From: Geobacter metallireducens GS-15
GTDB taxonomy: Bacteria; Desulfobacterota; Desulfuromonadia; Geobacterales; Geobacteraceae
DNA: 32,000 nt
Direction: 5' to 3'
Assembly (NCBI RefSeq): GCF_000012925.1
Contig: NC_007517.1
Coordinates: 1,020,001-1,052,000, forward strand
Part shown: positions 5,025 to 19,113 of the stretch, in pieces
How positions within the stretch are numbered: the stretch's first letter is position 1
Layout: every line of letters begins with the position of its first letter
Made by a program: the position numbers and the translations under genes
Notes under the pieces: model-generated
Databases searched by the model: none
The model's input: only the letters and a program-made list of their open reading frames with translations
Told to the model about the DNA's origin: nothing

Positions 5025-5043
5025 GCAGTATACAAAATCCGCC

Positions 5044-5071: not shown

Positions 5072-5437
5072 AATTCACTTGGTTAGTGAGTGTTAATCAG
5101 TGGGGAGGACTTTTAGGGATTGACATGCTATTCAGTGCTCGGATGACTTCCTCCGAAATCTAGTGCTTCAGGATGGATATGACGAGCAATTCAGATGCAG
5201 AATATGAACGATTCTAAAACAGGGAATGCTTCGCAGATTTGAGTGATGTTTTTTGCTTTTTGGCTGGAAGGATAGGGCGCTACTTCATTCCCGGTTCATG
5301 AAATGTGATGGTTGATCGTGTAGGCAGGGTTTTCACAATCTTAACGCGAAGGAGGTGATGACAGGAGGTCTTTTGATTCAACTGTTGTCGTAAATGAAAA
5401 TTCTCTGCAGTTAATTACGCGAAAGGAGCAGAAAGGG

Positions 5438-6907
5438 ATGAAAAAGAAGATTTTGTTGAGCGCTGGGCTCGCAGTAACGGCAATTCTTGGTTTTGCCGCT
5501 GTCAACTGGGCTGTGGTACCCCCGCCGCCGGTTAACCAGAATGGAGGCATCTACGATACGACGTTTTCGGCGTTGACCCGTGCTGACTGTCTGCAGGCCG
5601 CCCCGTGTCACGTGAGTGATACGGTCGTGGTTCCCCGTCACCACAACCTGACACTGCCGCCGCGGCAGCTGAGCTGCTACGGCGACCCGACCGCCAACCC
5701 GGTTACCGGCTGCCACCAGCTGGTCCCCGACGGGGCGGGCGGATTCACCTTTGCTGATTTCCGGGATTGCCTCCGCTGCCACTCCAAGACTCCGCACCAT
5801 ATCACAACCCAAGCCCAGCAGCAGGACTGCAAGTTCTGCCACGGCAGCTTCATTGACAATCCGCTGGATGGCCATACCATCCCGACCTACGCCAAATCTT
5901 CGGTCACTCCCGAAACCAAGTGGCGCGGCAACAACCCCACCTCCCCGCAGAACTACGGCGGTTGCGCGGCATGCCACCAGGCTGCTGTAGCCTCCCCCAC
6001 CGTCGGACCGAAGGACATCAAGAGCAACGCCGATAACCACCACGGGACCGGCCTCGGTGCTCCGACTTCCACGACCGGCCAGCCGATCCAGGTCGGTGAC
6101 TGCACCTGGTGCCACGGCGGTGTGCCGGGCGACGTCAACTTCCTTGACATCCGGACCTGCGAGCGTTGCCATGGCATCAAGTCGCTCCACAACATTGAGA
6201 ACCCCTCCGGTGCCGGGCCTAACGGCTCCACGCTCGGAACCAACGTCGTCCCGGGTGCCATGCCGCTCGGTTACGGCCACATCGGCGCTGACTTCGATTG
6301 CTGGGGCTGCCACGGTACGTTCAAGAAGTATGCAACCGATCCGTCTCCGGCCGGTGCGGTTGTACCGTTCGTATCCGACCTGAGCACCAGGGTCCTCATC
6401 GCCAACCAGTCTAACGCACTCACCATCACTGGTGGCAGCTTCACCAACCAGAGCAACGGCGTAGACTTCACTTCATCCGTTACCCTTACCAATGGTTCGG
6501 TCACGGTCAATGTCCAGCCGACCTCCATTACCGTGAGCGAGATTCAGGTAAACATCCCGGCTCTTCCGGTCGGCACCTACGACCTGCTCGTGGTCAAGGG
6601 CGACAAGCAGAGCAACCTGACTCGCGTTGCCGTACTTCCGCTCCTCACCATCAAGTCGGCTTCGGTCAGCGGCGGCACGGTTACCATCACTGGTAGCGGC
6701 TTCGGTGATGCTCCTGCTACCGACGTGAACACCGGCCTTGGCCTCTTCGCCGCGGACGGCAGCCAGATCCCCGTTTCGTTCTGGGGTAATGGTAAGATTG
6801 TCGGTTCAAGCACTGCCGTCAAGGCAGGCAGCACCGTTACCGTGAAGACCCTTTACGGACCTACCAGCGCCCTCGTTACCGGCGCAGGCAAGAAGGCCAA
6901 GCGGTAA
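5438..6907 (+). CDS. omcZ: Secreted octaheme c-type cytochrome with two C-terminal IPT/TIG (Ig-like) domains; OmcZ-type nanowire subunit precursor
   Basis: AAAGGAG lies 9 nt upstream of the ATG. Signal peptide MKKKILLSAGLAVTAILGFAAVNWA. Six CxxCH motifs: C111, C131, C176, C222, C241, C288. Two CH-terminated non-canonical sites: C51-x5-C57-H58 and C80-x11-C92-H93. The heme-free C-terminal ~185 aa contain two IPT-like repeats (ALTITGGSFT..., GTVTITGSGFGD...). The gene symbol is assigned from this architecture plus the adjacent subtilisin gene, not from an alignment. Confidence 0.8.
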   Translation: MKKKILLSAGLAVTAILGFAAVNWAVVPPPPVNQNGGIYDTTFSALTRADCLQAAPCHVSDTVVVPRHHNLTLPPRQLSCYGDPTANPVTGCHQLVPDGAGGFTFADFRDCLRCHSKTPHHITTQAQQQDCKFCHGSFIDNPLDGHTIPTYAKSSVTPETKWRGNNPTSPQNYGGCAACHQAAVASPTVGPKDIKSNADNHHGTGLGAPTSTTGQPIQVGDCTWCHGGVPGDVNFLDIRTCERCHGIKSLHNIENPSGAGPNGSTLGTNVVPGAMPLGYGHIGADFDCWGCHGTFKKYATDPSPAGAVVPFVSDLSTRVLIANQSNALTITGGSFTNQSNGVDFTSSVTLTNGSVTVNVQPTSITVSEIQVNIPALPVGTYDLLVVKGDKQSNLTRVAVLPLLTIKSASVSGGTVTITGSGFGDAPATDVNTGLGLFAADGSQIPVSFWGNGKIVGSSTAVKAGSTVTVKTLYGPTSALVTGAGKKAKR

Positions 6908-6920: not shown

Positions 6921-6958
6921 GGGATAGGGGAGGGAGTTTCTCCCCTATCCCACTTTTT
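6921..6958 (+). terminator. Rho-independent terminator downstream of the cytochrome gene
   Basis: GGGATAGGGGA (6921-6931) pairs perfectly with TCCCCTATCCC (6941-6951) across a 9-nt loop. A T-run (TTTTT) follows at 6954-6958. It starts 14 nt after the stop codon. Confidence 0.85.
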
Positions 6959-6999
6959 ACCTGTTTACCGGCTGCTTCCCATTGATTAAGAGGTACACC

Positions 7000-8502
7000 A
7001 TGAACATACTACGCACCCTTCTTGTCGCTGTTATGGGGGCGATGCTTTGCTTACCACTTGATTCGTTTGCTGCCACGAAGAAGGTGATCGTCGGATTCAC
7101 TCGCGCGCCAAAAGATCATGAAAAAAATCTGGTGTATGGCGCAAGAGGCCGAATCCACCGGACTCACCAGCACATCCGTGCCATTTCCGCGGAACTTCCC
7201 GAGGAAGAGATAGCGCGTCTGAAGCAGGACCCTTCGGTTGCTTATGTTGTTGATAATATTAAATTTACTCTGATTCGACCGGCAGAGCCGCTCAGTGTCC
7301 CGTCACCCGAATATGTGGATTCGTGGGGTGTTCTGCGGATCGGCTCCAATGTTGCCGCCTCCCGTGGATATAAAGGGGCGGGAATCAAGGTCGCCATTGT
7401 TGACTCCGGAATTGACTACAACCATCCCGACCTCAAGGACAACTATCGGGGTGGATACAATTTTGTAAACAATACAGCAGATCCCTTTGACGACGATGCC
7501 CAGAGCCATGGAACCCATGTGGCGGGGATCATCGCGGCCCGGGACAACGGCACCGGCGTTGTCGGTGTGGCGCCGGAAGCATCCCTCTACGCGGTAAAGG
7601 TCTTCAGTGCCACCGCCGGGGGGGACATGGATACCGTCGTTGCCGGGATTGAGTGGGCCATTGACAACAAGATGGATGTGATCAACCTCAGCATCGGGTA
7701 TTCCGGCGACATCTATTCCATCTATCCCGACATTTTCAAGCCTCTCAAGGATGTCTGCGACCGGGCCTACCAGGCAGGCATCGTTCTGGTTGCGGCAACA
7801 GGAAACGACAACCGGGAAACTATTTCCGTTCCGGCGGCGTTCGATTCCGTCATTGCCGTTGCGGCCACTGACCAGAATGACCAGCGTGCCGTCTTTAACA
7901 CTGTCGCTGCATCCAGTTATGGTGCAAAAGTGGAACTGGCCGCGCCGGGCACCTATATCAAATCCACGGTCAGCGGTGGTGGATACGCACTCCTGAGCGG
8001 CACTTCCCAGGCCTCACCCCATGTTGCTGGAGCGGCTGCGGTTCTTCTTTCCAGCGGCATTGCCGACGCAAACGGTAACGGCAGTCGTGCCGACGAGGTA
8101 CGGGCAAGGCTGGACGCAACCGCCAAGGATTTGGGGGATCCAGGGCGTGACAAGTACTTCGGCTGGGGGTTGGTTGACCTTTCTGCGTCTACGGACCAGA
8201 CCTACAAGTTACATATCGAGAAGAAAAAAGGCATGCCGAAGCTCAGCACACAATCCATAACCCTCGACAAGGGGAGCTATTCGTTGCAGGTCAGGAATAA
8301 CGGCTTGGAGCGGCTGGCGGTAAAGTCTGTCGTTGGAAGCTGCAAGGAATTCGAGCGGGTCTTTGCCACCGGCTTCACATCTCCTCTTGAGGAACTGAAT
8401 GCCAGTGTGACTCTCGATGGCTCTCAAACGACGCTTGTTTTTACCCCGTCCGGTGACATTGGTTCCTCAGCTGACATCACCATCACGAAACTCGCCCGGT
8501 AA
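7000..8502 (+). CDS. ozpA: Secreted subtilisin-family (S8) serine protease with I9-like propeptide and a ~100-aa C-terminal extension; OzpA-like
   Basis: ATG at 7000 is preceded by AAGAGG with a 6-nt spacer; the ORF-track TTG at 6982 is an extension. Signal peptide MNILRTLLVAVMGAMLCLPLDSFA. Catalytic triad contexts VAIVDSGID (Asp), HGTHVAGIIAA (His) and SGTSQASPHVAGAAA (Ser), with oxyanion Asn in AATGND. The symbol is assigned by synteny with the OmcZ-like gene. Confidence 0.85.
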   Translation: MNILRTLLVAVMGAMLCLPLDSFAATKKVIVGFTRAPKDHEKNLVYGARGRIHRTHQHIRAISAELPEEEIARLKQDPSVAYVVDNIKFTLIRPAEPLSVPSPEYVDSWGVLRIGSNVAASRGYKGAGIKVAIVDSGIDYNHPDLKDNYRGGYNFVNNTADPFDDDAQSHGTHVAGIIAARDNGTGVVGVAPEASLYAVKVFSATAGGDMDTVVAGIEWAIDNKMDVINLSIGYSGDIYSIYPDIFKPLKDVCDRAYQAGIVLVAATGNDNRETISVPAAFDSVIAVAATDQNDQRAVFNTVAASSYGAKVELAAPGTYIKSTVSGGGYALLSGTSQASPHVAGAAAVLLSSGIADANGNGSRADEVRARLDATAKDLGDPGRDKYFGWGLVDLSASTDQTYKLHIEKKKGMPKLSTQSITLDKGSYSLQVRNNGLERLAVKSVVGSCKEFERVFATGFTSPLEELNASVTLDGSQTTLVFTPSGDIGSSADITITKLAR

Positions 8503-8523
8503 CGGGTGACGCATAGAGGAAAA

Positions 8524-9516
8524 ATGAGATTAAATCGTTCGCTAACATTTGGATTATTCCTTTTGGGAGTGATGTTCACTCTTCATCTGCTTCAGACGCC
8601 TGTCTCCGCGGATGAGGTGAATAAAACCGGGAAAGTAGTAGCCCGGGTCAATGGGGTTCCGATCTACGAGAATGCTTTGCAGTCGCACCTTGCCGCATTG
8701 GCTAATAAGGGAAGAGCTTCCGGATTCGCGCGTGATCCAGCAAAGATGAACGACTACCAAAAGAAAAAAGCACTCTATTCCCTCATTGATGCAGAACTGC
8801 TTCGCCAGGCAAGCAACCAGCAGCAAGTTACCGACCTTGACGCCAAGGTGAGCAAGCGGTTACAGGAAGTTAAAGGGAAGTTTCCCGACGAAGAGGCGTT
8901 TCTCAAAAATCTCCAGGCCAGAGGGAAGACCCTCGACATCTTTGTGGCTGAACTTCGGGACGGGATTCGCTACGACGAATATCTTACGAGCAAGAAGGTC
9001 ATTGGCGTTCCGGTTCCCGATGAGGAGATCCAGAAGTTCTACCGCGACAATCCGACGAGCTTCAGTGTTCCGGAGCAGATCAAGGTCAGACATATTCTGA
9101 TCGAGCCCGATGGTAGCACCGCTGAGGCTGTTGCCAAGGCCGAAAAGAAGGCCGGTGAAATCCGTAATCGGGTTGTCAGGGATAAGGACTTTGCCGCAGT
9201 TGCCAAGGAGGTATCGGCGTGCTCCACCGCTTCGTCCGGTGGGGATCTGGGCTATGTTTCGCGAGGAACCATGCCCGCTGAGTTCGATAAGGTCGCCTTT
9301 TCACTCAAGCTCAATGAGGTGAGCGAACCGGTCAGGACTAAATTTGGTTTCCACATTATGGAAGTTTTGGATAAAAAGCCGGTGACGGTACGGCCGTACT
9401 CGGAAGTTCGAGAGTTCATTTCCCGCTACCTGCAACGTTTCGACGATGAAAAACGTTTGAATGCACACACGCTGGAGTTGCGGAAGAAAGCAACCATCGA
9501 GGTTCTGCTCGATTGA
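8524..9516 (+). CDS. Exported SurA/PrsA-like peptidyl-prolyl cis-trans isomerase (single parvulin/PpiC domain)
   Basis: ATG at 8524 follows GAGGA; GTG at 8506 is an alternative start. N-terminal signal/anchor LTFGLFLLGVMFTLHLL. A SurA-N-like helical region precedes a parvulin domain (IKVRHILI...GGDLGYVSRGTMPAEFDKVAF...KFGFHIMEV). The gene starts only 21 nt after the protease stop. Confidence 0.88.
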   Translation: MRLNRSLTFGLFLLGVMFTLHLLQTPVSADEVNKTGKVVARVNGVPIYENALQSHLAALANKGRASGFARDPAKMNDYQKKKALYSLIDAELLRQASNQQQVTDLDAKVSKRLQEVKGKFPDEEAFLKNLQARGKTLDIFVAELRDGIRYDEYLTSKKVIGVPVPDEEIQKFYRDNPTSFSVPEQIKVRHILIEPDGSTAEAVAKAEKKAGEIRNRVVRDKDFAAVAKEVSACSTASSGGDLGYVSRGTMPAEFDKVAFSLKLNEVSEPVRTKFGFHIMEVLDKKPVTVRPYSEVREFISRYLQRFDDEKRLNAHTLELRKKATIEVLLD

Positions 9517-9620: not shown

Positions 9621-12600
9621 ATGGGCATTGCTCGAAAAATCAAATGGGTATTCGTGACACTCTGCCTCCTGCTGGTAACGGCGCTCACCTCATCAGCCTA
9701 TGCTGCTGACTGGAACCTTACCAGTGGGAATTCAACGGTAACGCTTAATGACTCCGCAATGCCCGGAACTAGTCCCGGCGTTTATTCCTGGCTATTAGAC
9801 AACGTTGAACGGATAAGTCAGCAGGCGTTCTACTACAGGATCGGGACGACATCGCCCGAGGTCAGCGTGAGTGGTGACACTCTTGATGCCACTGCTCCTT
9901 TCACTGTTGCTGCCAGCAACCAGACCGCTTCCTCAGTAACCCTGACGTTTACCGAAAAAGCCGGAAGGTTCTCGATTGCCGTCACCTATGAGTTGATTGG
10001 CGGAACCACTGGTCGCTCGACGCTTAACAAGAAGGTGGTCGTTACCAACCTCACGGCGGCTCCTCTTGACCTCCATCTTTTCAGCTATTCGGATTACGAC
10101 CTCAAGACTGGCGCCTATAATTTCGAGAATGCCTCAATTGTCAACGGCAAGGCGTATCAGTCCAGTTTTACTAACACCACCGACACGGTCGGTAACGGGG
10201 CGACTTTTGTTGAACGTGCAACAGTGCCTCCCAGTCGCGTCGGTATCGATAACGCCCAGTTCCTGGGCTCCCTGGCAAACGGGGCCACACCATACAACCT
10301 CGACAATTTTTCCGGACCGTTCCCCTCCAATGGTGACTCCCAGTTCGCCTTCCAATGGGATCTGACCGTAGACCCCAAGACACCGACTTCATTTACGATT
10401 ACAGACGACTTTTACCCGACCAAGGCCCTCTATCTCTCAAAAGCCTCCACGCCCAGCACCTGTGTAAACTATGGTCAGACCTTCACGAACACCTATGCGT
10501 TTGACAACACACGAAACCTTGCCACTCCTGCCGATAACACCCTCATCAGAGAGAAGCTGGCCCGCGACATCTCTCTCTCGTTAGCGACCGACGGCGGGGC
10601 CTACAACGCGACAACCGGCTCCGTCGATTGGAAGATTCTCCAGATGGCGGCCGGTGCAGCGCAGCAGACGGTCCAGGGGACCTATACCGTCAACTCCGCC
10701 GCCGATTTCACAATGACGTCCCAGATAGTCAGCGACGAGACATTCCCCACGAGCGTGAGTGCCAAGCTGACTCTCTGTAATCACCCCCCTTCAATTTCTT
10801 CCTTTCCGGGCAAGAACGGCACCGAAGGCCAGGCATACAGTTACCAGGTGATAGCCACTGATTCCGACCCGGGGACCACGCTAAGCTACTCCCTTGATGT
10901 CGCTCCTGCCGGGATGACGATCAATTCAAGCGGCCTTATCACGTGGACTCCTACGTCTGCCCAGACCGGTAATAACACGATAACCGTCCGGGTGAGTGAT
11001 GGTACTCTGGCCGCTACCCAGACCTATACGCTCTTCATTGCCTATGTAAACGCCGCACCGTCCATCACCTCTTCTCCGGTGACGAGTGCTTACGTCGGGG
11101 TTTCCTATCCTTACACCGTGGTCGCAACCGACCCGAACCTCAAACAGGGTGACAAGCTCACCTTCGGATTGCCGGCTGCCCCCAGCGGGATGACCATTAA
11201 TTCGACCACCGGTGTTATTTCCTGGACACCGGATGCGACGCAGGTCGGCCCCCAGAATGTTGTCGTTCAAGTTACGGATAACGGCTATCTCTTCGTCCAA
11301 CAAAGCTTCACGGTAACCGTCAGCGCGACAACCAAGCAGACCCCTGTCATCACGTGGACAGCGCCTGCCGCGATCACCTACGGGACCGCGCTTGGCGTGA
11401 CGCAATTGAACGCCACAGCCAACGTCCCCGGCACCTACGCCTACACCCCGGCCTCCGGCGCCGTCCTTAACGCCGGGAGCCAGACCCTGTCGGTCACCTT
11501 CACGCCAACCGATACGACCACCTACACCACGGCCACCGCGACCACCACCCTCACGGTGAACAAGGCCACCCCGACCATTACGTGGGCGACGCCGGCCTCT
11601 GTTCCCGTCGGCACGGCGCTTTCCTCGACTCAACTGAACGCCACGGCCAGCACGGTCGGCAGCTTCACCTACACCCCAGTCTCCGGGACGGTGCTGACCA
11701 CCGCTGGAGTCCAGACGCTGTCCGCCACTTTCACCCCGACCGACACCACAAACTACAACGGCGCCTCAGCGAGTGTGAACCTCTCGGTAGTTGCCAAACA
11801 GGTACCGACCATCACGTGGGCAGCGCCTGCGGCGATCACCTACGGGACCGCGCTCAGCGCCGCGCAGCTGAACGCCACGGCCGGTGTCCCCGGCACCTAC
11901 ACCTACACCCCGGCCGTCGGCACGGTACTTAACGCCGGCACCCAGAGCCTGTCGGTCACCTTCACGCCGACCGATACGACCATCTACACCCCGGCTACCG
12001 CGACCGTCAGCCTCACGGTGAACAAGGCCAGCCAGACGGTCAGCTTCACCTCGACCATTCCGACGAGTCCCGCGTTTGGTGGCACCTACACCCCGGCAGC
12101 CACCGCGACCTCCGGGCTCGCCGTAGCCATCACCCTTGATGCCGCCAGCACCGGCTGCACACTCGCCTCCGGCGTAGTAACCTTCACCGGGGCCGGCACC
12201 TGCGTGATCGACGCCAACCAGGCAGGCACCACCAACTACAACGCCGCAGCCCAGGTACAGCAGAGCATCGGCATCGGCAAAGGCGCTTCGACCATAACCG
12301 TGACCGGCGCCACCAGCTTCACCTACACCGGCGCCCCGCAGGGTCCGGGCACTGCCACCGTGACCGGCTCGACCGGCGCGGTGACCTACAGCTACGCCGG
12401 GACCGGAACCACCACCTATCCCGCAAGCGCCACCAAACCGACCAATGCCGGTAGCTACACCGTAACCGCCACCGTAGCGGCTGACGCCAACTACAACGGC
12501 GCCTCCTCCTCCGCCACGGCATTCACCATCACCAAGGCCGCTGCCACCGTGACCCTCGGCAACCTTACCGCCACCTATGACGGCACTGCCAAGGCCGCTA

Positions 12601-15600
12601 CCGCTACCACCATCCCGAACGGGCTGACCGTGGCAATCACCTACGCCGGCGGCACCACCGCACCGACCGCGGCCGGTTCCTACGCCGTAGTTGCCACCGT
12701 TAACGACGCCAACTACACCGGCAGCGCTACGGGCACCCTGAACATCGCCAAGGCCAGCCAGACGGTCAGCTTCACCTCGACCATTCCGGCGAGTCCCGCG
12801 ATAGGCGGCACCTACACCCCGGCAGCAACCGCGACCTCCGGGCTCGCCGTAGCCATCACCCTTGATGCCGCCAGCACCGGCTGCACACTCGCCTCCGGCG
12901 TAGTGACCTTCACCGGGGCCGGCACCTGCGTGATCGACGCCAACCAGGCGGGCACCACCAACTACAACGCCGCAGCCCAGGTACAGCAGAGCATCGGCAT
13001 CGGCAAAGGCGCTTCGACCGTAACCGTGACCGGCGCCACCAGCTTCACCTACACCGGCGCCCCGCAGGGTCCGGGCACTGCCACCGTGACCGGCTCGACC
13101 GGCGCGGTGACCTACAGCTACGCCGGGACCGGAGCCACTACCTATCCCGCAAGCGCCACCAAACCGACCAATGCCGGTAGCTACACCGTAACCGCCACCG
13201 TAGCGGCTGACGCCAACTACAACGGCACCTCCTCCTCCGCCACGGCATTCACCATCACCAAGGCCGCTGCCACCGTGACCCTCGGCAACCTTACCGCCAC
13301 CTATGACGGCACTGCCAAGGCCGCTACCGCTACCACCATCCCGAACGGGCTGATCGTGGCTATCACCTACGCCGGCGGCACCACCGCACCGACCGCGGCC
13401 GGTTCCTACGCCGTAGTTGCCACCGTTAACGACGCCAACTACACCGGTAGCGCCACGGGTACCCTGGTTATTGCCAAGGCGACGTCTACCATCACTTGGG
13501 CCACGCCGACCGCCGTTCCCGTCGGCACTGCCCTCAGCAGCACCCAACTGAACGCCACAGCCAATACTGCCGGTACTTTCACCTACACCCCAGCTGCCGG
13601 GACGGTCATGAACACCGTCGGGACCCAGGCCCTGTCCGTCTCCTTTACACCGACAGACAGCACGAACTACACCAGCGCCACGGCGAGCGTGAGTCTCTCG
13701 GTAGTTGCCAAGCAGGTACCGACCATCACGTGGGCAGCGCCTGCGGCGATCGCCTATGGCACAGCCCTTGACGCCACCCAACTGAACGCTACCGCCAACG
13801 TAGCGGGTACCTTCGTCTACACTCCGGCCGCCGGCACCGTGCTTAACGCCGGCAGCCAGACCCTGTCGGTCACCTTCACGCCGACCGACACTGCCACGTA
13901 CACCACGGCCACCAAGACCGTCAGCCTCACGGTGAACAAGGCCAGCGCCACCATAACTCTCTCAGGGCTCAGCGCCACCTACGACGGCACCACCAAGGCC
14001 GCAACCGCCACAACCAGCCCTGCCGGAGTAGCAGTATCCCTAACCTATAAGAACGGTAAAACCACGGTAACCAGCCCGACAGCGGCAGGAAGCTACAGCG
14101 TAACCGCCACCGTCACCGACCCGAATTACACCGGTAGCGCCACGGGTACCCTGGTTATTGCCAAAGCGACGTCTACCATCACCTGGGCTACGCCGACTGC
14201 CGTTCCCGTCGGCACTGCCCTCAACGACACCCAACTGAACGCCACAGCCAATACTGCCGGCACCTTCAGCTACACCCCGGCTGCCGGGACGGTTGTGAAC
14301 ACAGCCGGGACCCAGACGCTGTCCGTCTCCTTCACGCCGACCGACAGCACGAACTACACCAGCGCCACAGCGAGCGTGAGCCTCTCGGTAGTTGCCAAGC
14401 AGGTACCGACCATCACGTGGGCAGCGCCTGCGGCGATCGCCTATGGCACAGCGCTTGACATCAATCAACTGAACGCCACGGCCAACGTTGCCGGTACCTT
14501 TGCCTATACCCCGGCCTCCGGCACCGTGCTTAACGCCGGCAGCCAGACCCTGTCGGTCACCTTCACGCCGACCGACACCGCCACGTACACCACGGCCACC
14601 AAGACCGTCACCCTGACGGTGAACCCGGCCAGCGCCACGGTAACCCTCGCAGGCCTTACCGCCACCTATGACGGCAGCGCCAAGGCCGTCACCGCTACCA
14701 CCAACCCTGCGGGCAAGGCCGTCACCATCACCTACGCCGGCAGCGCCACCGCGCCGACCGCAGCCGGTTCCTACGCCGTAGTTGCCACCGTCACCGACCC
14801 GAATTACACCGGTAGCGCCACGGGTACCCTGGTTATTGCCAAAGCGACGTCTACCATCACCTGGGCTACGCCGACTGCCGTTCCCGTCGGCACTGCCCTC
14901 AACGACACCCAACTGAACGCCACAGCCAATACTGCCGGCACCTTCAGCTACACCCCGGCTGCCGGGACGGTTGTGAACACAGCCGGGACCCAGACGCTGT
15001 CCGTCTCCTTCACGCCGACCGACAGCACGAACTACACCAGCGCCACAGCGAGCGTGAGCCTCTCGGTAGTTGCCAAGCAGGTACCGACCATCACGTGGGC
15101 AGCGCCTGCGGCGATCGCCTATGGCACAGCGCTTGACATCAATCAACTGAACGCCACGGCCAACGTTGCCGGTACCTTTGCCTATACCCCGGCCTCCGGC
15201 ACCGTGCTTAACGCCGGCAGCCAGACCCTGTCGGTCACCTTCACGCCGACCGACACCGCCACGTACACCACGGCCACCAAGACCGTCACCCTGACGGTGA
15301 ACCCGGCCAGCGCCACGGTAACCCTCGCAGGCCTTACCGCCACCTATGACGGCAGCGCCAAGGCCGTCACCGCTACCACCAACCCTGCGGGCAAGGCCGT
15401 CACCATCACCTACGCCGGCAGCGCCACCGCGCCGACCGCAGCCGGTTCCTACGCCGTAGTTGCCACCGTCACCGACGCCAACTACACCGGTAGCGCCACG
15501 GGTACCCTGGTTATTGCCAAAGCGACGTCTACCATCACCTGGGCCACGCCGACTGCCGTTCCCGTCGGCACTGCCCTCAACGACACCCAACTGAACGCCA

Positions 15601-17531
15601 CAGCCAATACTGCCGGCACCTTCAGCTACACCCCGGCTGCCGGGACGGTCATGAACACCGCCGGGACCCAGACACTGTCCGTCTCCTTCGTCCCGACCGA
15701 CCCCGTCAACTACAGCACGGCAACAGCAAGCGTTAACCTCACCGTGAACGCCGTTACCAAGCAAACTCCGGTAATTACCTGGGCAACGCCGGCGGCAGTG
15801 TCGGTTGGTACGACTCTCAGTAGCACTCAGCTCAATGCCACAGCCAACGTACCGGGCACCTTCACCTACATCCCGGCTGCCGGGACAGCCCTGAACACCG
15901 CCGGCACCGTAACTCTTTCCGCCACCTTCACGCCGACCGACACCGTAAACTACAACACGGCAACGGCGAGCGTTAACCTCACTGTGAACGCCGTTACCCA
16001 GCAGACTCCGGTCATTACCTGGGCAACACCGGCGGCAGTGTCTGAGGGTACGACCCTCGGCAGCACCCAACTCAACGCCACTGCCAACGTTCCGGGTACC
16101 TTCGCCTACACCCCGGCAGCCGGGACAGCCCTGAACACCGCCGGCACCGTAACTCTTTCCGCCACCTTCACGCCGACCGACACCGTCAACTACACCACGG
16201 CAACGGCGAGCGTGAGCCTCACCGTGAACGCCGTTATCACCAAGCAGCCCCCCGTGATCACATCGTCTCCGGTGACAACAGGATATAAGGACGGCTACTA
16301 CTACTATCAGGTAGTGGCTTCTGATCCGAATGGTGACACTGTCAGTTACTCGTTGAGCACCTATCCGTCGGGCATGACCATCAACTCGACGACGGGACTC
16401 ATTTACTGGCGTCCGGGGAGCACCGGCACCTATTCGGTAACGGTGAGAGCAAAGGACACAACTGGTCTTTACGCAAGCCAGAGCTTCAAGATTTCCGTAG
16501 CCGACAGCTCTTCCAACAGCTCGCCGAAGATCACCTCGACGGCTGTGACCACGGCAGTCGTTGATACTTTGTACAACTATGATGTGAATGCAACGGATTC
16601 CAATGGCGACACCGTGTACTTCAGGTTGTCATCGGCACCGTCAGGGATGACGATCGACGCGATAAGCGGTCTCATCAGCTGGACGCCGACTTCATCCCAG
16701 ACCGGCTCGAAATATGTGAGTGTCCAGGCGGTCGACAGCAAGGGAGGAAGAACGTCACAGAGCTTCTACATTACGGTGTCACAGTCCTCCAGTACCAATA
16801 ACGCACCGGTGATTTCTACCTCGCCGGTAACAACTGCCACCGTGGGACGTTCGTACTCCTATGATGTCAATGCAACTGACGCTGATGGGGATACTTTGAC
16901 CTACAAGCTGACCACCGCCCCCAGTGGCATGGGCATCGACGCAAACACCGGTGTCATTTCGTGGACTCCTTCGTCCTCACAGACCGGATCCAACAGTGTG
17001 ACGGTCGAGGTGACTGATGGCAAGGGAGGAAGCGACACCCAGAGCTTCACCGTATCGGTCACGGGGAGTACAACGAACAATGGGGCTCCTCAATTCACTT
17101 CCACTCCCGTGACCACTGCAGTTGTCAGGAAGTATTACACCTATAACGCTGACGCCGTTGATCCGAATGGCGACACTATTAAATATTCGTTCGCCAGAAG
17201 GCCTGACGGTATGTCGATCAATTCTTCCACGGGCTTGATCAACTGGTATGCCTCCCGAACCGGCTCCTACAATGTTTCGGTGAAGGCCACCGATTCGAAA
17301 GGGAATTCTGCATACCAGAATTTCACCATTACCGTTGTGACGGCAGATGTGTCAGCTATCCCCTTGTCCGTTAATTCGTGCGATGTCAACGGTGATGGTC
17401 TTGTAACCATCGATGATGTCAAGGCGATCATTGCCGGGAGGGGGACTAACAACCTCACTCTCGATATGGACGGTGATGGTGCCGTGACGTTGCTGGATGC
17501 GCGCATTTGCTCCCCTCAAGTGAAGAACTGA
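9621..17531 (+). CDS. Giant (2,636 aa) secreted Thr/Ala-rich repeat protein: unique N-terminal domain, cadherin-like domains, about 21 Ig/MBG-like modules, C-terminal dockerin
   Basis: ATG at 9621; the ORF-track TTG at 9597 is an extension. Signal peptide MGIARKIKWVFVTLCLLLVTALTSSAYA. A single uninterrupted ORF. Module types read from the translation: (a) cadherin-like/He_PIG-like (SPVT...Y.Y.V.A.D.[ND]GD...SGM.I[ND]S.TGLI.WTP); (b) about 80-aa modules P.ITW..P..(I/V).YGTAL...QLNATA..GTF.YTP...TLSV.FTPTD..NY; (c) MBG-like modules (L.ATYDG.AKA...ITY.G...APT.AGSY.V.ATV.D.NYTGSATGTL.IAKA); (d) SQTVSFTS...C...C modules; (e) dockerin. Confidence 0.9.
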   Translation: MGIARKIKWVFVTLCLLLVTALTSSAYAADWNLTSGNSTVTLNDSAMPGTSPGVYSWLLDNVERISQQAFYYRIGTTSPEVSVSGDTLDATAPFTVAASNQTASSVTLTFTEKAGRFSIAVTYELIGGTTGRSTLNKKVVVTNLTAAPLDLHLFSYSDYDLKTGAYNFENASIVNGKAYQSSFTNTTDTVGNGATFVERATVPPSRVGIDNAQFLGSLANGATPYNLDNFSGPFPSNGDSQFAFQWDLTVDPKTPTSFTITDDFYPTKALYLSKASTPSTCVNYGQTFTNTYAFDNTRNLATPADNTLIREKLARDISLSLATDGGAYNATTGSVDWKILQMAAGAAQQTVQGTYTVNSAADFTMTSQIVSDETFPTSVSAKLTLCNHPPSISSFPGKNGTEGQAYSYQVIATDSDPGTTLSYSLDVAPAGMTINSSGLITWTPTSAQTGNNTITVRVSDGTLAATQTYTLFIAYVNAAPSITSSPVTSAYVGVSYPYTVVATDPNLKQGDKLTFGLPAAPSGMTINSTTGVISWTPDATQVGPQNVVVQVTDNGYLFVQQSFTVTVSATTKQTPVITWTAPAAITYGTALGVTQLNATANVPGTYAYTPASGAVLNAGSQTLSVTFTPTDTTTYTTATATTTLTVNKATPTITWATPASVPVGTALSSTQLNATASTVGSFTYTPVSGTVLTTAGVQTLSATFTPTDTTNYNGASASVNLSVVAKQVPTITWAAPAAITYGTALSAAQLNATAGVPGTYTYTPAVGTVLNAGTQSLSVTFTPTDTTIYTPATATVSLTVNKASQTVSFTSTIPTSPAFGGTYTPAATATSGLAVAITLDAASTGCTLASGVVTFTGAGTCVIDANQAGTTNYNAAAQVQQSIGIGKGASTITVTGATSFTYTGAPQGPGTATVTGSTGAVTYSYAGTGTTTYPASATKPTNAGSYTVTATVAADANYNGASSSATAFTITKAAATVTLGNLTATYDGTAKAATATTIPNGLTVAITYAGGTTAPTAAGSYAVVATVNDANYTGSATGTLNIAKASQTVSFTSTIPASPAIGGTYTPAATATSGLAVAITLDAASTGCTLASGVVTFTGAGTCVIDANQAGTTNYNAAAQVQQSIGIGKGASTVTVTGATSFTYTGAPQGPGTATVTGSTGAVTYSYAGTGATTYPASATKPTNAGSYTVTATVAADANYNGTSSSATAFTITKAAATVTLGNLTATYDGTAKAATATTIPNGLIVAITYAGGTTAPTAAGSYAVVATVNDANYTGSATGTLVIAKATSTITWATPTAVPVGTALSSTQLNATANTAGTFTYTPAAGTVMNTVGTQALSVSFTPTDSTNYTSATASVSLSVVAKQVPTITWAAPAAIAYGTALDATQLNATANVAGTFVYTPAAGTVLNAGSQTLSVTFTPTDTATYTTATKTVSLTVNKASATITLSGLSATYDGTTKAATATTSPAGVAVSLTYKNGKTTVTSPTAAGSYSVTATVTDPNYTGSATGTLVIAKATSTITWATPTAVPVGTALNDTQLNATANTAGTFSYTPAAGTVVNTAGTQTLSVSFTPTDSTNYTSATASVSLSVVAKQVPTITWAAPAAIAYGTALDINQLNATANVAGTFAYTPASGTVLNAGSQTLSVTFTPTDTATYTTATKTVTLTVNPASATVTLAGLTATYDGSAKAVTATTNPAGKAVTITYAGSATAPTAAGSYAVVATVTDPNYTGSATGTLVIAKATSTITWATPTAVPVGTALNDTQLNATANTAGTFSYTPAAGTVVNTAGTQTLSVSFTPTDSTNYTSATASVSLSVVAKQVPTITWAAPAAIAYGTALDINQLNATANVAGTFAYTPASGTVLNAGSQTLSVTFTPTDTATYTTATKTVTLTVNPASATVTLAGLTATYDGSAKAVTATTNPAGKAVTITYAGSATAPTAAGSYAVVATVTDANYTGSATGTLVIAKATSTITWATPTAVPVGTALNDTQLNATANTAGTFSYTPAAGTVMNTAGTQTLSVSFVPTDPVNYSTATASVNLTVNAVTKQTPVITWATPAAVSVGTTLSSTQLNATANVPGTFTYIPAAGTALNTAGTVTLSATFTPTDTVNYNTATASVNLTVNAVTQQTPVITWATPAAVSEGTTLGSTQLNATANVPGTFAYTPAAGTALNTAGTVTLSATFTPTDTVNYTTATASVSLTVNAVITKQPPVITSSPVTTGYKDGYYYYQVVASDPNGDTVSYSLSTYPSGMTINSTTGLIYWRPGSTGTYSVTVRAKDTTGLYASQSFKISVADSSSNSSPKITSTAVTTAVVDTLYNYDVNATDSNGDTVYFRLSSAPSGMTIDAISGLISWTPTSSQTGSKYVSVQAVDSKGGRTSQSFYITVSQSSSTNNAPVISTSPVTTATVGRSYSYDVNATDADGDTLTYKLTTAPSGMGIDANTGVISWTPSSSQTGSNSVTVEVTDGKGGSDTQSFTVSVTGSTTNNGAPQFTSTPVTTAVVRKYYTYNADAVDPNGDTIKYSFARRPDGMSINSSTGLINWYASRTGSYNVSVKATDSKGNSAYQNFTITVVTADVSAIPLSVNSCDVNGDGLVTIDDVKAIIAGRGTNNLTLDMDGDGAVTLLDARICSPQVKN
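10785..11325 (+). other. Two N-proximal cadherin-like (He_PIG-type) domains of the giant protein
   Basis: PPSISSFPGKNGTEGQAYSYQVIATDSDPGTTLSYSLDVAPAGMTINSSGLITWTP... and APSITSSPVTSAYVGVSYPYTVVATDPN...PSGMTINSTTGVISWTP... Confidence 0.6.
12026..13477 (+). repeat. Tandem in-frame duplication, 2 x 726 bp (242 codons), near-identical
   Basis: GGCCAGCCAGACGGTCAGCTTCACC starts at both 12026 and 12752. A by-eye comparison of the two units shows only about a dozen substitutions (for example ccgacgagt/ccggcgagt, tttggtggc/ataggcggc). Each unit encodes one SQTVSF module plus two MBG-like modules. Confidence 0.9.
13424..15690 (+). repeat. Tandem in-frame array of about 680-bp units (687 + 678 + 678 + about 220 bp partial); units 2 and 3 are identical
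   Basis: Unit starts are at 13424, 14111, 14789 and 15467. By line-by-line comparison, 14111-14798 appears base-for-base identical to 14789-15476. Unit 1 has a 9-bp insertion and scattered changes. Unit 4 diverges after about 15690. Each unit encodes two ITW modules plus one MBG-like module. Confidence 0.9.
15747..16226 (+). repeat. Tandem in-frame duplication, 2 x 240 bp (80 codons), diverged
   Basis: AACGCCGTTACC(A/C)AGCA(A/G)ACTCCGGT(A/C)ATTACCTGGGCAAC starts at 15747 and 15987, and a third junction lies at 16227. Protein units: VTKQTPVITWATPAAVSVGTTL... and VTQQTPVITWATPAAVSEGTTL... Confidence 0.85.
16248..17340 (+). other. Four C-proximal cadherin-like (He_PIG-type) domains of the giant protein
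   Basis: PPVITSSPVTTGYKDGYYYYQVVASDPNGD..., SPKITSTAVTTAVVDTLYNYDVNATDSNGD..., APVISTSPVTTATVGRSYSYDVNATDADGD..., APQFTSTPVTTAVVRKYYTYNADAVDPNGD.... Each is followed by SGM(T/G/S)I(N/D)..TG(L/V)I.W. Confidence 0.65.
17379..17510 (+). other. C-terminal type-I-like dockerin module (two Ca-binding EF-hand-like loops)
   Basis: CDVNGDGLVTIDDVKAIIAGRGTNNLTLDMDGDGAVTLLDARIC. It contains two D.[ND]GDG.V...D loops about 24 residues apart, bracketed by Cys residues, at the extreme C-terminus. Confidence 0.75.
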
Positions 17532-17575
17532 GGATATGATGCTGTAAGCAAAGCTGTGATTTCGTATGATGAACG

Positions 17576-17612
17576 ACGGGGAGGTGTCGCGGACGCCTCC
17601 CCGTTTCTTTTT
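17576..17612 (+). terminator. Rho-independent terminator of the giant gene
   Basis: ACGGGGAGG (17576-17584) pairs with CCTCCCCGT (17596-17604) across an 11-nt loop, followed by TTCTTTTT (17605-17612). It begins 45 nt after the stop codon. Confidence 0.85.
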
Positions 17613-17646
17613 GCCGCAACCCTTGAGGGCGCATTGGTATTCACGG

Positions 17647-17676
17647 TTGCCCCTGATTTCGAAAAGATGGTATAAC
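17647..17676 (+). promoter_or_regulatory. Candidate sigma70-type promoter TTGCCC-N18-TATAAC for the plsC-rnhA-HNH-HAD gene string
   Basis: TTGCCC at 17647-17652 and TATAAC at 17671-17676. It lies between the terminator and the AGAGG/TTG start at 17707. Pattern match only. Confidence 0.3.
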
Positions 17677-17706
17677 CAGTTCATTCCACATGATTCAGAG
17701 GTTTTC

Positions 17707-18360
17707 TTGAAGGCTTCCCTGGTTCGCCGTGTCTGGGTTACATTCTCTGCCCATGTAATCGGTTTCTATGCATCCACTCTCAACAGGTTCCGGGTTAAAG
17801 GGATTGAAAACCTGCCGAAGGATGGTGGGGTGCTGATCGCCTCCAACCACATCTCGGCCTATGAAACCATTTTCATTCCCTGGGCCGTGTTGCGTCACTA
17901 TCCCCTGCAGATGGTCTGGGCTCCCGCCAAGGAAGAGCTTTTCACCAGCCGTCTTCAGCAGTGGCTCTACAGTTCGTGGGGGGCGTTTCCGGTCAAGCGG
18001 GGGCGCGACATCCGCGCCGGTAAGGTCATCAATGATCTTCTCCTGACCGAAAAGGTGATGCTCTTCCCCGAGGGGACCCGCCATAAGGACGGGGTTCTCG
18101 GCCCTGGCAACCGGGGTGTGGGCAAGATTATCTACGACACGCGCCCCACGGTCGTGCCGACGGCCCTCGTGGGCCTCAATCGCTGGAAGTTCCCCGGTGT
18201 AGGCCAGGATGCCGCCATCGTATTCGGAAAACCTCTCGATTTTGCAGACCTGTATGGCCGCGAAGACAACAAGGAAACTCACCAGTTGATTGTCGGGCGT
18301 GTCATGACAGCCATAGCTGATCTTCTGAAGACGGAAGGGGCCTATGTCAACAAGGGTTGA
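17707..18360 (+). CDS. 1-acyl-sn-glycerol-3-phosphate acyltransferase family protein (PlsC-like)
   Basis: Acyltransferase motifs NHISAYE (H-x4-D/E block) and FPEGTR. The ORF-track start at 17566 would place the terminator hairpin (17576-17612) inside the gene. TTG at 17707 is preceded by AGAGG with a 5-nt spacer and is the first plausible in-frame start downstream of the terminator. Confidence 0.7.
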
Positions 18361-18802
18361 ACTTTTCTGCGACGGTGCCTGCAGCGGTAATCCGGGCGTC
18401 GGCGGTTGGGGGGGCATCCTTCGGTGTGGCGCTACGGAAAAGGAATTATCGGGCGCCGAGTGGGAGACCACCAACAACCGGATGGAGATGACCGCCGCCA
18501 TCCGGGGGCTGGAGGCCCTGACGCGTCCCTGTGAGGTGGTCGTCACCACCGACTCCCAGTATCTGGTAAAGGGAATGACCGAATGGCTTTCGGGGTGGAT
18601 CCGGCGGGGGTGGGTCAACAGCAAGAAGGAGCCGGTGCTGAACCGGGATCTCTGGGAACGGCTCCTGGAACTCTCCAAGACTCACCGGATCCAGTGGACC
18701 TGGATTCGGGGGCACAACGGCCATGCCGAGAACGAGCGCTGTGACGCCCTGGCTCGGGGGGCCATTGACGAGCTCAGAAAGAAGGGGCAGGGACGGCGGT
18801 GA
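18344..18802 (+). CDS. rnhA: Ribonuclease HI
   Basis: [26 protein letters not shown] and [14 protein letters not shown] motifs (DEDD catalytic residues). GGAAGGGG lies upstream of the ATG. The gene overlaps the plsC-like gene by 17 nt. Confidence 0.93.
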
Positions 18803-19113
18803 ACTACTTCATCGTTGAGGTGTCGGAGCAGGAGGTGAAGCGGGAGAAGGAAAAGGCCCGGGAGCTTCGCCGAAGCCAGTGGTGGAAGAACCGGATTGCC
18901 CGCGGCATCTGCCACTACTGCGGTGAAATCTTCCCGCCCGAGGAGCTCACCATGGACCACCTGGTGCCCGTCGTGCGTGGCGGCAAGAGCACCCGCGGCA
19001 ACGTGGTTCCGGCCTGCAAGGAGTGCAACAACCGCAAGAAGTATCTCCTCCCCGTGGAGTGGGAGGAGTATCTGGATTCGTTGGAAAGCGAACCGTCCGA
19101 CGGTGAAGGGTAA
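18799..19113 (+). CDS. Small HNH endonuclease (104 aa)
   Basis: CHYCG...[10 protein letters not shown]...[13 protein letters not shown], that is CxxC...H-N-H...CxxC zinc-finger HNH. The GTG start overlaps the rnhA stop (GTGA at 18799-18802). Confidence 0.8.

What the first reader, a model, noticed from the sequence alone, without database searches (positions are those of the whole stretch)
9621..17531. Giant modular surface protein whose central array mixes three module types in a fixed super-repeat
The translation shows this order: signal peptide; a ~390-aa unique beta-rich N-domain with no motif I recognise; 2 cadherin-like domains; 3 ITW modules; 2 copies of a (SQTVSF Cys-pair module + 2 MBG-like modules) unit; 3.3 copies of a (2 ITW + 1 MBG-like) unit; 2 more ITW modules; 4 cadherin-like domains; and a dockerin. 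Such architectures are typical of adhesins and matrix scaffolds. The protein is extremely Thr/Ala/Gly-rich and contains only a few Cys. Its placement directly after cytochrome-processing genes is unexplained.
Basis: partly seen in the sequence, partly recalled or inferred. Interest (0 to 1): 0.65.

Follow-up and report, generated by a model that had tools for sequence, protein, structure and literature searches.

The report
Fourth gene of OmcZ nanowire cluster
This 2,636-residue secreted protein, a long chain of Ig-like domains with a sugar-binding-type head and a calcium-dependent docking tail, is the conserved but unstudied fourth gene of the Geobacter OmcZ "nanowire" gene cluster, and most likely tethers or organises that system in the biofilm matrix.

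Summary

Three points need correcting:
- The "motif-less" N-domain is two known kinds of domain. N1 is a galactose-mutarotase-like beta-supersandwich that otherwise occurs in hundreds of ~280-aa PEP-CTERM proteins. N2 is a DUF11 domain.
- The "cadherin-like" modules are He_PIG domains, and the "ITW" modules are ASH/HYDIN-type Ig domains.
- The super-repeat is not fixed. It is a recent, lineage-specific amplification with copies up to 99.6% identical in DNA, and it differs even in the closest relative found.

The gene's placement is explained. It follows a true OmcZ orthologue, an OzpA-like subtilase and a PPIase. Fifteen related loci carry the cluster genes directly upstream, in as far as their contigs extend that way, and they fall into three different flanking contexts.

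The positional G. metallireducens counterpart, Gmet_0933, is highly transcribed. Published work treats the operon as three genes, which are enough to make nanowires.

Best reading, by inference: an extracellular tether of roughly 100 nm that links matrix polysaccharide to a docking partner. No experiment exists. It is a new variant of a known kind, of moderate interest.

The parts
5438..6907 (+). OmcZ orthologue: an octahaem c-type cytochrome with C-terminal TIG/Ig domains
   Evidence: Full-length match to G. sulfurreducens OmcZ, PDB 8D9M chain A, E 3e-114. Pfam Cytochrome_C7 and TIG.
6921..6951 (+). Strong hairpin with a T-run just after omcZ; possible attenuator
   Evidence: 14-pair stem, 8 of them G-C. 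Its function is inferred.
6982..8502 (+). OzpA-like subtilase (Peptidase_S8)
   Evidence: Pfam S8, E 2e-60. Same position as ozpA (GSU2075) and Gmet_0931.
8506..9516 (+). SurA-like PpiC-type peptidyl-prolyl isomerase
   Evidence: Pfam Rotamase and SurA_N_3. Same position as GSU2074 and Gmet_0932.
9621..9701 (+). Start codon and Sec signal peptide (aa 1-27, cleavage AYA|AD)
   Evidence: Sequence. The matching N-termini of the homologues are aligned.
9702..10406 (+). N1 head domain (aa 28-262): galactose-mutarotase-like beta-supersandwich
   Evidence: AF2 model with pLDDT 90.1. Foldseek matches the N-domains of GH94 and GH15 enzymes, E 1.8e-8, TMq 0.70. Homologous to hundreds of ~280-aa PEP-CTERM proteins.
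10407..10784 (+). N2 (aa 263-388): DUF11-type beta-sandwich bracketed by invariant Cys281 and Cys386
   Evidence: Pfam DUF11 at 22.2 bits, just under the 24.6 cut-off. phmmer matches 19 stretches in each of two proteins that carry 21 DUF11 stretches apiece. The two Cys are invariant.
10785..11342 (+). Two He_PIG Ig-like domains (aa 389-574)
   Evidence: Pfam He_PIG, E 2.5e-30.
11343..12029 (+). Three ITW modules (aa 575-803), ASH/HYDIN-type Ig
12030..13484 (+). Two copies of the SQ(Cys-pair)-MBG-MBG unit (aa 804-1288)
   Evidence: 97.1% DNA identity between the copies. MBG_3 by Pfam. The SQ module has no Pfam or PDB sequence match.
13485..15527 (+). Three copies of the ITW-ITW-MBG unit (aa 1289-1969; 687, 678 and 678 nt)
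   Evidence: Units 2 and 3 are 99.6% identical in DNA; unit 1 is about 87%.
15528..16241 (+). Three further ITW modules (aa 1970-2207)
16242..17360 (+). Four He_PIG Ig-like domains (aa 2208-2580)
   Evidence: Pfam He_PIG. PKD-like match to collagenase domains.
17361..17531 (+). Dockerin-type double Ca-loop module bracketed by Cys2587 and Cys2630, then the stop codon
   Evidence: Dockerin_1 at 26.0 bits against a cut-off of 22.9, in 2 stretches. Loops DVNGDGLVTIDD and DMDGDGAVTLLD. Conserved in P0006, P0007, P0015, L004 and L011.
17575..17605 (+). Strong intrinsic-terminator-like hairpin that closes the unit
   Evidence: 14-pair stem, 9 of them G-C, followed by a T-run.

Best explanation
**What it is.** The gene is the fourth and last gene of the omcZ nanowire cluster (omcZ, ozpA-like subtilase, PPIase, this gene).

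**The protein.** It is exported by the Sec pathway. It forms an extended chain of about 28 beta-sandwich domains, roughly 100 nm long if each domain spans about 4 nm; that length is an inference.

**The two conserved ends.**
- At the N-terminus is a head made of N1 and N2. N1 is a carbohydrate-binding-type supersandwich. In other bacteria this domain is attached directly to a PEP-CTERM/exosortase tail, a sorting system associated with exopolysaccharide. N2 is a DUF11 domain.
- At the C-terminus are four He_PIG domains and a disulphide-bracketed, Ca2+-dependent dockerin.

**Proposed mechanism (inferred).**
- The dockerin fixes one end to a partner protein that is not yet identified.
- The head binds matrix polysaccharide.
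- The protein thereby acts as a spacer or tether that organises or retains the OmcZ system in the biofilm matrix.

**Role of the central array.** The ITW/MBG/SQ array is a length-variable stalk, not a specific functional code.

**Shown versus inferred.**
- Shown: gene structure, domain identities, the N1 fold prediction, the conserved linkage to omcZ, and transcription of the positional counterpart.
- Inferred: extracellular location, ligand, docking partner and the tether role.
For: **Linkage to omcZ.**
- The window cytochrome is a full-length OmcZ orthologue.
- The order omcZ-S8-PPIase-(N1-N2-He_PIG protein) recurs on one strand in L001/L006, L003, L004, L005, L007, L008, L010, L011/L012, L013, L014, L015, L018 and L021. 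L019 shows S8-PPIase-N-domain up to its contig end.
- These loci sit in three different flanking contexts: mre genes, MMPL plus a giant cytochrome, and AsmA.
- There is no terminator-like site in the gap between the PPIase stop and the giant gene's start. A strong one follows the giant gene.

**Expression.** G. metallireducens has the same gene order. Gmet_0933 ("Putative Ig domain") shows log2 expression of 11.0 and 12.05, above Gmet_0931 and Gmet_0932 and close to omcZ.

**Head domain.**
- AF2 model with pLDDT 90.
- Foldseek places it with the N-domains of GH94 and GH15 enzymes and with aldose epimerase.
- 92 of 108 small homologues end in a PEP..RR sorting tail.
- 47 of the 113 sequences in alignment A2 weakly hit the flocculation protein PepA model. 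Overexpressing PepA raises bound exopolysaccharide (PMC9850573).

**Conserved ends, variable middle.** Architectures range from about 1,340 to 2,700 aa with different arrays.

**Biological context.**
- Geobacter EPS anchors matrix cytochromes (PMC4974642).
- Three genes make OmcZ wires in Shewanella, but these are "not connected" to its metabolism.
Against: - There is no direct evidence for location, ligand or partner.
- The dockerin is missing from the more distant omcZ-linked orthologues (L008, L013, L015), which end in a short unrelated tail. Docking is therefore not universal in the family.
- Remote omcZ clusters (L016, L017) lack the gene altogether.
- omcZ, ozpA and the PPIase are enough for filament formation in a heterologous host and in vitro, so the protein is not an assembly factor.
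- The link to PepA is weak. Hits are below the model cut-off, and the window's own N1 does not hit the model.
- No cohesin gene is present in the window.
- Short N1-N2 proteins occur away from omcZ (L002, L009).
Confidence: 0.5

Rival explanations
1. It is a general-purpose adhesin. The protein attaches cells to minerals, electrodes or partner cells. It is co-transcribed with omcZ only because both are needed at surfaces, and it has no physical or functional tie to OmcZ filaments or to matrix polysaccharide.
For: - The Ig-repeat architecture with He_PIG and MBG domains is typical of adhesins.
- The head evolves and recombines fast, as exposed binding domains often do (dS 1.50 against 0.08-0.47 for the neighbours).
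- Short N1-N2 forms exist outside omcZ clusters.
- The G. metallireducens positional counterpart is expressed during partner-cell co-culture.
Against: - Every long form recovered sits directly behind the cluster genes, and these loci occupy three different genomic contexts.
- The head's fold and its PEP-CTERM relatives point to glycan or matrix binding rather than mineral binding.
Confidence: 0.25
2. It is a direct OmcZ or OzpA partner. The protein binds OmcZ filaments, the cleaved OmcZ TIG domains, or OzpA. It would then nucleate, bundle or anchor wires at the cell surface, or position the protease there.
For: - Strict synteny with omcZ, ozpA and the PPIase.
- Wires made in Shewanella from the three genes alone had no effect on EET flux, which the authors took to mean they are not connected to its redox metabolism.
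- OzpA has an unassigned C-terminal region of about 107 aa that could serve as a docking site.
- The two omcZ clusters that lack the fourth gene also lack a detectable TIG domain in OmcZ. This rests on only two loci.
Against: - Filaments form without it, both in vivo and in vitro.
- No cohesin-like domain was detected in OzpA or OmcZ.
- The dockerin is absent from distant linked orthologues.
- No interaction data exist.
Confidence: 0.15
3. The head is an enzyme. N1 would be a mutarotase- or glycoside-hydrolase-like enzyme that modifies matrix polysaccharide, and the Ig stalk would simply deliver it.
For: - The fold family includes aldose 1-epimerase.
- His125 is invariant in the N1-N2 proteins, and Glu53 is invariant in A1 and near-invariant in the wider family.
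- One small homologue hits a GH15 model, oligosac_amyl, E 2e-5.
Against: - The best structural matches are the non-catalytic N-terminal domains of GH94 and GH15 enzymes. The epimerase match is weaker, with TMq 0.58.
- No catalytic (alpha/alpha)6 domain is present.
- No enzyme family was hit by the window's N1.
Confidence: 0.05

Closest known systems
The three-gene omcZ operon of Geobacter sulfurreducens (omcZ GSU2076, ozpA GSU2075, PPIase GSU2074)
   Same: - The window holds an OmcZ orthologue (E 3e-114 to PDB 8D9M), an S8 protease and a PpiC-type isomerase, in the same order and on the same strand.
- The gene downstream of the giant gene is an acyltransferase, as is GSU2072.
   Different: - Published work describes and reconstitutes the operon as three genes.
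- The large gene studied here is a conserved fourth member.
- No paper in the searchable library discusses it in its main text.
Small PEP-CTERM proteins of the PepA-like group (flocculation-associated PepA, NCBIfam NF033554)
   Same: - The N1 head is homologous to the whole ectodomain of hundreds of ~280-aa PEP-CTERM proteins.
- 47 of the 113 sequences in alignment A2 weakly match the PepA model along most of their length.
- PepA increases bound exopolysaccharide (PMC9850573).
   Different: - The giant protein has no PEP-CTERM tail. It carries about 28 Ig-type domains and a dockerin instead.
- All PepA scores fall below the model's cut-off.
- The window's N1 itself does not hit the model.
Giant Ig-repeat surface adhesins of Gram-negative bacteria (LapA/SiiE/BapA type)
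   Same: It is very large and Thr/Ala-rich, and it has tandem Ig-like modules whose copy number changes quickly through near-identical DNA repeats.
   Different: - It has a cleavable Sec signal peptide.
- It has no RTX repeats and no type I secretion genes beside it.
- It has a distinct head and a dockerin tail, and it sits in an electron-transfer gene cluster.
Non-cellulosomal dockerin/cohesin proteins, including those noted in ANME archaea
   Same: - The C-terminal module is of the dockerin type, with two EF-hand-like Ca loops.
- ANME archaea carry close OmcZ homologues, and several ANME lineages carry many dockerin/cohesin proteins of unknown role (PMC9012536).
   Different: - No cohesin partner has been identified here.
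- The dockerin is bracketed by a Cys pair.
- It is present only in one clade of the family.
The repetitive fourth-gene protein of other Omc (OmcS-type) nanowire clusters
   Same: [quoted passage not shown] 2025).
   Different: - That statement concerns other Omc nanowire clusters, not omcZ.
- No sequence comparison could be made here.
- The resemblance is one of role only and is untested.

Membership tests
omcZ nanowire gene cluster | An OmcZ-type octahaem cytochrome with C-terminal Ig/TIG domains lies immediately upstream. | tested here: met
   Window 5438-6907 aligns over its full length with PDB 8D9M chain A, E 3e-114. TIG domain found.
omcZ nanowire gene cluster | An OzpA-like S8 protease and a PpiC-type isomerase lie between omcZ and this gene, on the same strand, with no terminator-like site in the gap before it. 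| tested here: met
omcZ nanowire gene cluster | The linkage is conserved across species and across different genomic contexts. | tested here: met
   Fifteen related loci in three flanking contexts. The gene is absent from two remote clusters.
omcZ nanowire gene cluster | A functional requirement for OmcZ-dependent phenotypes. | not testable with these tools
   No genetic data found. Three genes are enough for filaments.
Pfam He_PIG (PF05345) | The profile match is above the gathering score. | tested here: met
   239.9 bits against 24; 6 stretches.
Pfam MBG_3 (PF18887) | The profile match is above the gathering score. | tested here: met
   450.4 bits against 25; 7 stretches.
ASH/HYDIN/CFAP65-type Ig (ITW modules) | The profile match is above the gathering score for a single module. 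| tested here: inconclusive
   The whole protein scores 145 bits for Ig_CFAP65_4th. A single module scores only 21.3 bits against a cut-off of 27. This supports an assignment at superfamily level only.
Dockerin type I (PF00404) | Two 12-residue Ca-binding loops, each followed by a helix, with a profile match above the gathering score. | tested here: met
   26.0 bits against 22.9 on the isolated C-terminus, in 2 stretches. The whole protein scores 18.4 bits, below the cut-off. Loops DVNGDGLVTIDD and DMDGDGAVTLLD.
Dockerin type I (PF00404) | A cognate cohesin partner exists. | not testable with these tools
   No cohesin in the window. The rest of the genome was not available.
DUF11 (PF01345), for N2 | The profile match is above the gathering score. 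| tested here: inconclusive
   22.2 bits against 24.6. However, phmmer links N2 to 19 stretches in each of two proteins that carry 21 DUF11 stretches apiece.
PEP-CTERM / exosortase cargo proteins | A C-terminal PEP motif, a transmembrane helix and an Arg-rich tail. | tested here: not met
   The giant protein ends in a dockerin. No PEP-CTERM hit. Only the N1 domain is shared with this class.
NCBIfam floc_PepA (NF033554) | A score above the 80-bit cut-off. | tested here: not met
   No hit for the window's N1. The small relatives sampled score 22-36 bits, and the best E-value among the 113 aligned sequences is 3e-12.
Galactose-mutarotase-like supersandwich (N1 fold) | Structural similarity of a confident model to solved members of the fold. 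| tested here: met
   pLDDT 90.1 and pTM 0.88. 86 PDB matches at E<=0.001, with the top ones at TMq 0.65-0.71. The structure is predicted, not solved.
RTX / type I secreted giant adhesins | C-terminal RTX repeats with a T1SS signal, and an adjacent ABC/MFP exporter. | tested here: not met
   No RTX hits. An N-terminal Sec signal is present. The neighbours are omcZ, S8, the PPIase and an acyltransferase.

The most novel reading that the evidence does not exclude
The protein is the dedicated tether of OmcZ nanowires. Its dockerin end fixes to a cell-surface or cluster-encoded partner. Its exchangeable sugar-binding head grips the matrix polysaccharide. Its species-specific stalk length sets how far the wires are held from the cell. 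This would be the missing component that explains why wires made heterologously from three genes are not wired into cell metabolism. It would also be a handle for engineering conductive biofilms.
Probability: 0.2. Interest if true: 0.8.

Novelty: new variant of a known kind. Interest (0 to 1): 0.55.

Why it matters
OmcZ is reported as the one cytochrome essential for the electroactivity of Geobacter biofilms (PMC4974642). How its filaments are retained and organised outside the cell is not settled.

A conserved, co-oriented and highly expressed fourth gene, with a glycan-binding-type head, a long stalk and a docking tail, is an obvious and untested candidate for that job. Current reconstitutions leave it out.

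If it does tether wires to the matrix or to cells, it bears on three things:
- models of biofilm conductivity;
- interspecies electron transfer;
- the design of engineered conductive materials.

If it does not, it remains a well-defined example of a surface protein in which a stalk array and a head domain turn over quickly beside slowly evolving neighbours.

Tried and rejected
**Searches that gave nothing useful**
- Pfam and NCBIfam scans of the 400-aa N-terminus gave no hit. A whole-library phmmer search was needed to see its relatives.
- The first AF2 model, built from 6 sequences, was poor (pLDDT 64) and was set aside. A 113-sequence alignment gave pLDDT 90.
- PDB sequence searches with the SQ module and with an ITW-ITW-MBG unit gave only chance-level hits. 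The SQ Cys-pair module therefore remains unassigned.
- An Rfam scan of the whole window found no RNA family.
- The metagenome scan with the N-domain returned only one locus.

**The G. sulfurreducens orthologue**
- A profile search meant to find it was swamped by small PEP-CTERM proteins.
- L011 turned out not to be G. sulfurreducens.
- The equation with GSU2073 therefore rests on position only.
- Text searches for GSU2073 and Gmet_0933 found nothing in main texts. Supplement searches of two G. sulfurreducens papers found no GSU2073 entry.
- The paper by Rollefson et al. 2011 is not held in the library.

**Readings rejected**
- RTX/T1SS adhesin, PEP-CTERM cargo and scaffoldin (no cohesin domain): the defining features are absent.
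- The long antisense ORFs (11766-13781 and 14040-16070, minus strand): these are artefacts of ACC/GCC-rich repeats.
Full report
**1.

The window contains a single uninterrupted ORF on the + strand. Its likely start is the ATG at 9621, which follows GGGAGAAGG, and its stop is at 17531, giving 2,636 aa.

Motif positions and HMMs built from the protein's own modules give this order:

- signal peptide
- N1-N2
- 2 He_PIG
- 3 ITW
- 2 x (SQ-MBG-MBG)
- 3 x (ITW-ITW-MBG)
- 3 ITW
- 4 He_PIG
- dockerin

Pfam agrees with the module types:

| Module | Pfam result |
|---|---|
| MBG | MBG_3, 7 stretches, 450 bits |
| "Cadherin-like" | He_PIG, 6 stretches, 240 bits |
| ITW | ASH/HYDIN/CFAP65-type Ig models; cumulative score high, a single module below cut-off |
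| C-terminus | Dockerin_1, 26.0 bits against a cut-off of 22.9 when the last 63 aa are scanned alone |

Composition is T 20.8%, A 15.0%, S 9.5% and G 7.9%, with 9 Cys.

One Cys lies in the signal peptide. The other eight form four pairs, each within one domain:

- 281/386 bracket N2 and are invariant in the family.
- 846/861 and 1088/1103 lie in the two SQ modules.
- 2587/2630 bracket the dockerin and are kept in the dockerin-bearing orthologues.

This pattern suits a protein that folds outside the cytoplasm.

**2. The repeats are recent and lineage-specific, not a fixed design**

DNA identity between the super-repeat units is high:

| Comparison | DNA identity |
|---|---|
| The two SQ-MBG-MBG units | 97.1% |
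| ITW-ITW-MBG unit 2 vs unit 3 | 675 of 678 nt, with an exact shared run of at least 625 nt |
| ITW-ITW-MBG unit 1 vs units 2 and 3 | about 87% |

Orthologues have different arrays:

- G. pickeringii has five MBG modules alternating with ITW pairs and no SQ module.
- G. hydrogenophilus has nine ITW modules, then four MBG-ITW-ITW units, and no SQ module. Its flanking housekeeping proteins are 97.5-98.9% identical to the window's.
- Another clade (P0008; L011 is similar) has only about 15 He_PIG domains after the N1-N2 head. P0009 has 21.
- Complete orthologues range from about 1,340 to 2,700 aa.

Within one species the modules are 98-100% identical. Between species they are 63-86% identical. 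The arrays have therefore been amplified or homogenised independently in each lineage.

The middle of the protein behaves as a stalk of variable length. The copy number in this assembly should be confirmed with long reads.

**3. The "unique" N-domain is two recognisable domains**

Pfam and NCBIfam scans found nothing in the first 400 aa. An exhaustive phmmer search then found 1,155 relatives, and they split the region in two.

*N1 (aa 28-262)*

- It matches hundreds of ~280-aa secreted proteins. Of 108 such proteins examined, 92 end in a PEP...RR sorting tail, and most of the rest carry variant tails.
- Named examples come from Verrucomicrobiota, Phycisphaerae and Bryobacteraceae.
- 47 of the 113 sequences in alignment A2 weakly match the NCBIfam model for the flocculation protein PepA. 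All are below its cut-off, and the window's N1 does not match it.
- With a 113-sequence alignment, AlphaFold2 gave a confident model (pLDDT 90.1, pTM 0.88).
- Foldseek placed that model with the beta-supersandwich N-domains of GH94 phosphorylases and GH15 glucoamylase or glucodextranase (E down to 1.8e-8, TMq about 0.7). More distant matches were aldose 1-epimerase and the YidC periplasmic domain.
- This is the galactose-mutarotase-like fold, a carbohydrate-binding type.

*N2 (aa 263-388)*

- It is a DUF11-type sandwich. The Pfam score is 22.2 bits against a cut-off of 24.6.
- phmmer links it to 19 stretches in each of two proteins that Pfam shows to carry 21 DUF11 stretches apiece.

**4. The placement is explained**

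The upstream cytochrome (5438-6907) aligns end to end with G. sulfurreducens OmcZ (PDB 8D9M, E 3e-114). It is followed by an S8 subtilase and a SurA-like PpiC isomerase. This is the omcZ-ozpA-PPIase arrangement described for GSU2076, GSU2075 and GSU2074.

A protein with the N1-N2-He_PIG start lies directly after these genes in the following loci:

- L001/L006 and L021 (G. hydrogenophilus)
- L003, L004, L005, L007, L008
- L010 (G. pickeringii)
- L011/L012, L013
- L014 (Pelotalea chapellei)
- L015
- L018 (metagenome)
- L019 (S8-PPIase-N-domain up to the contig end)

OmcZ identity in these loci falls as low as about 44%. They sit in three different flanking contexts.

Two remote omcZ-S8-PPIase clusters lack the gene. 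Short N1-N2-He_PIG-dockerin-like proteins of about 534-640 aa occur elsewhere, away from omcZ.

Within the window:

- There is no terminator-like site in the gap between the PPIase stop and the giant gene's start.
- A strong hairpin follows omcZ at 6921-6951.
- A strong terminator-like hairpin follows the giant gene at 17575-17605.

In G. metallireducens the order is Gmet_0928 mrdA, Gmet_0929 rodA, Gmet_0930 omcZ, Gmet_0931 S8, Gmet_0932 ppiC and Gmet_0933 "Putative Ig domain". Gmet_0933 has log2 expression values of 11.0 and 12.05. That is above Gmet_0931 and Gmet_0932 and close to omcZ (PMC10989804 supplement).

In G. sulfurreducens, GSU2072 is an acyltransferase, like the gene downstream here. 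GSU2073 is therefore the positional counterpart. I could not retrieve its sequence.

**5. How it most likely works**

*Shown*

- Sec signal peptide.
- Extracytoplasmic domain set.
- Conserved ends and a variable middle.
- Conserved linkage with omcZ.
- Transcription of the positional counterpart.

*Inferred*

- The protein is an extended tether. About 28 beta-sandwich domains at roughly 4 nm each would span on the order of 100 nm.
- In small relatives, the head domain is attached to the cell by a PEP-CTERM tail, a sorting system tied to exopolysaccharide production.
- Overexpressing the distant relative PepA raises bound exopolysaccharide (PMC9850573).
- Geobacter EPS anchors matrix cytochromes (PMC4974642).

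From this I propose that N1 binds matrix glycan and the dockerin binds a partner that has not been identified. The protein would then organise or retain the OmcZ system in the matrix.

It is not an assembly factor. Three genes are enough for wires in Shewanella and in vitro. Those wires had no effect on EET flux, which the authors took to mean they are not connected to host redox metabolism.

*Caveats*

- The dockerin is confined to one clade. More distant linked orthologues end in a short unrelated tail.
- No cohesin was seen in the window.
- No ligand or localisation data exist.

**6. An extra finding: the head appears to be exchanged**

I compared the window with G. hydrogenophilus, gene by gene:

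| Region | dS | Other |
|---|---|---|
| mre genes | 0.08-0.21 | |
| omcZ | 0.24 | |
| S8 and PPIase | 0.47 | |
| N1 | 1.50 | 65% aa identity, dN/dS 0.16 |
| N2 and the first He_PIG pair | about 0.4 | |

The window's N-domain (N1 plus N2) is also closer to that of other species (74-77%) than to G. hydrogenophilus (69%). The window's OmcZ shows the opposite ranking.

This mosaic pattern suggests that the head has been swapped by recombination while remaining under purifying selection. That is what one would expect of an exposed binding domain.

**7. Comparison with known systems, and novelty**

- It is not a PEP-CTERM protein, an RTX adhesin or a scaffoldin. The defining features were tested and are absent.
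- It does belong to the omcZ cluster, by synteny, conservation and transcription-unit structure.
- The kind of protein, a giant Ig-repeat surface protein, is ordinary.
- What I did not find described in the searchable literature is the combination of three things: a PEP-CTERM-family supersandwich head with DUF11, a dockerin tail, and strict attachment to the omcZ cluster.

**Verdict:** a new variant of a known kind, of moderate interest, with an experimentally testable hypothesis.

Noticed in passing
window 9702-10406, compared with L021: The N1 head has dS 1.50 against G. hydrogenophilus, while the neighbouring genes have 0.08-0.47. Its dN/dS is only 0.16. The window's N-domain (N1 plus N2) is closer to that of other species than to its nearest relative's. 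This suggests recombinational exchange of the head domain.
   Followed up: partly
window 6921-6951: A strong hairpin with a T-run sits 14 nt after the omcZ stop codon. It may be an attenuator that lets omcZ be expressed above the downstream genes.
   Followed up: no
window 4593-5437: There is an 846-nt non-coding gap between rodA and omcZ, with three promoter-like sites at 4976-5071. No Rfam family matches it. In G. pickeringii the equivalent gap holds a radical-SAM gene (L010).
   Followed up: no
window 17566-18360: The listed start of the acyltransferase ORF overlaps the terminator-like hairpin at 17575-17605. The L011 homologue is 217 aa against 264 aa here. The true start is probably about 45 codons further downstream.
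   Followed up: no
L010 14111-15298; L004 8652-9854 (also L003 and L005): An extra ORF of about 395-401 aa, with no Pfam match, lies between the PPIase and the giant gene in G. pickeringii. A gap of similar size is present in L003-L005, where L004 has a 401-aa open frame. It is absent from the window.
   Followed up: no
window 11766-13781 and 14040-16070, minus strand: Two antisense ORFs of about 670 aa lie inside the repeat array. They are artefacts of the ACC/GCC-rich repeats (GC skew about -0.25), not genes.
   Followed up: partly
window 18799-19113: A small HNH endonuclease ORF lies after RNase H. It is conserved at the same position in L011.
   Followed up: no
L016 and L017, compared with the other omcZ loci: The two omcZ clusters that lack the fourth gene also lack a detectable TIG domain in their OmcZ. 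This could be a co-occurrence, but it rests on only two loci.
   Followed up: no
window 8179-8502: The C-terminal ~107 aa of the OzpA-like protease match no Pfam family. This region is a candidate interaction domain.
   Followed up: partly
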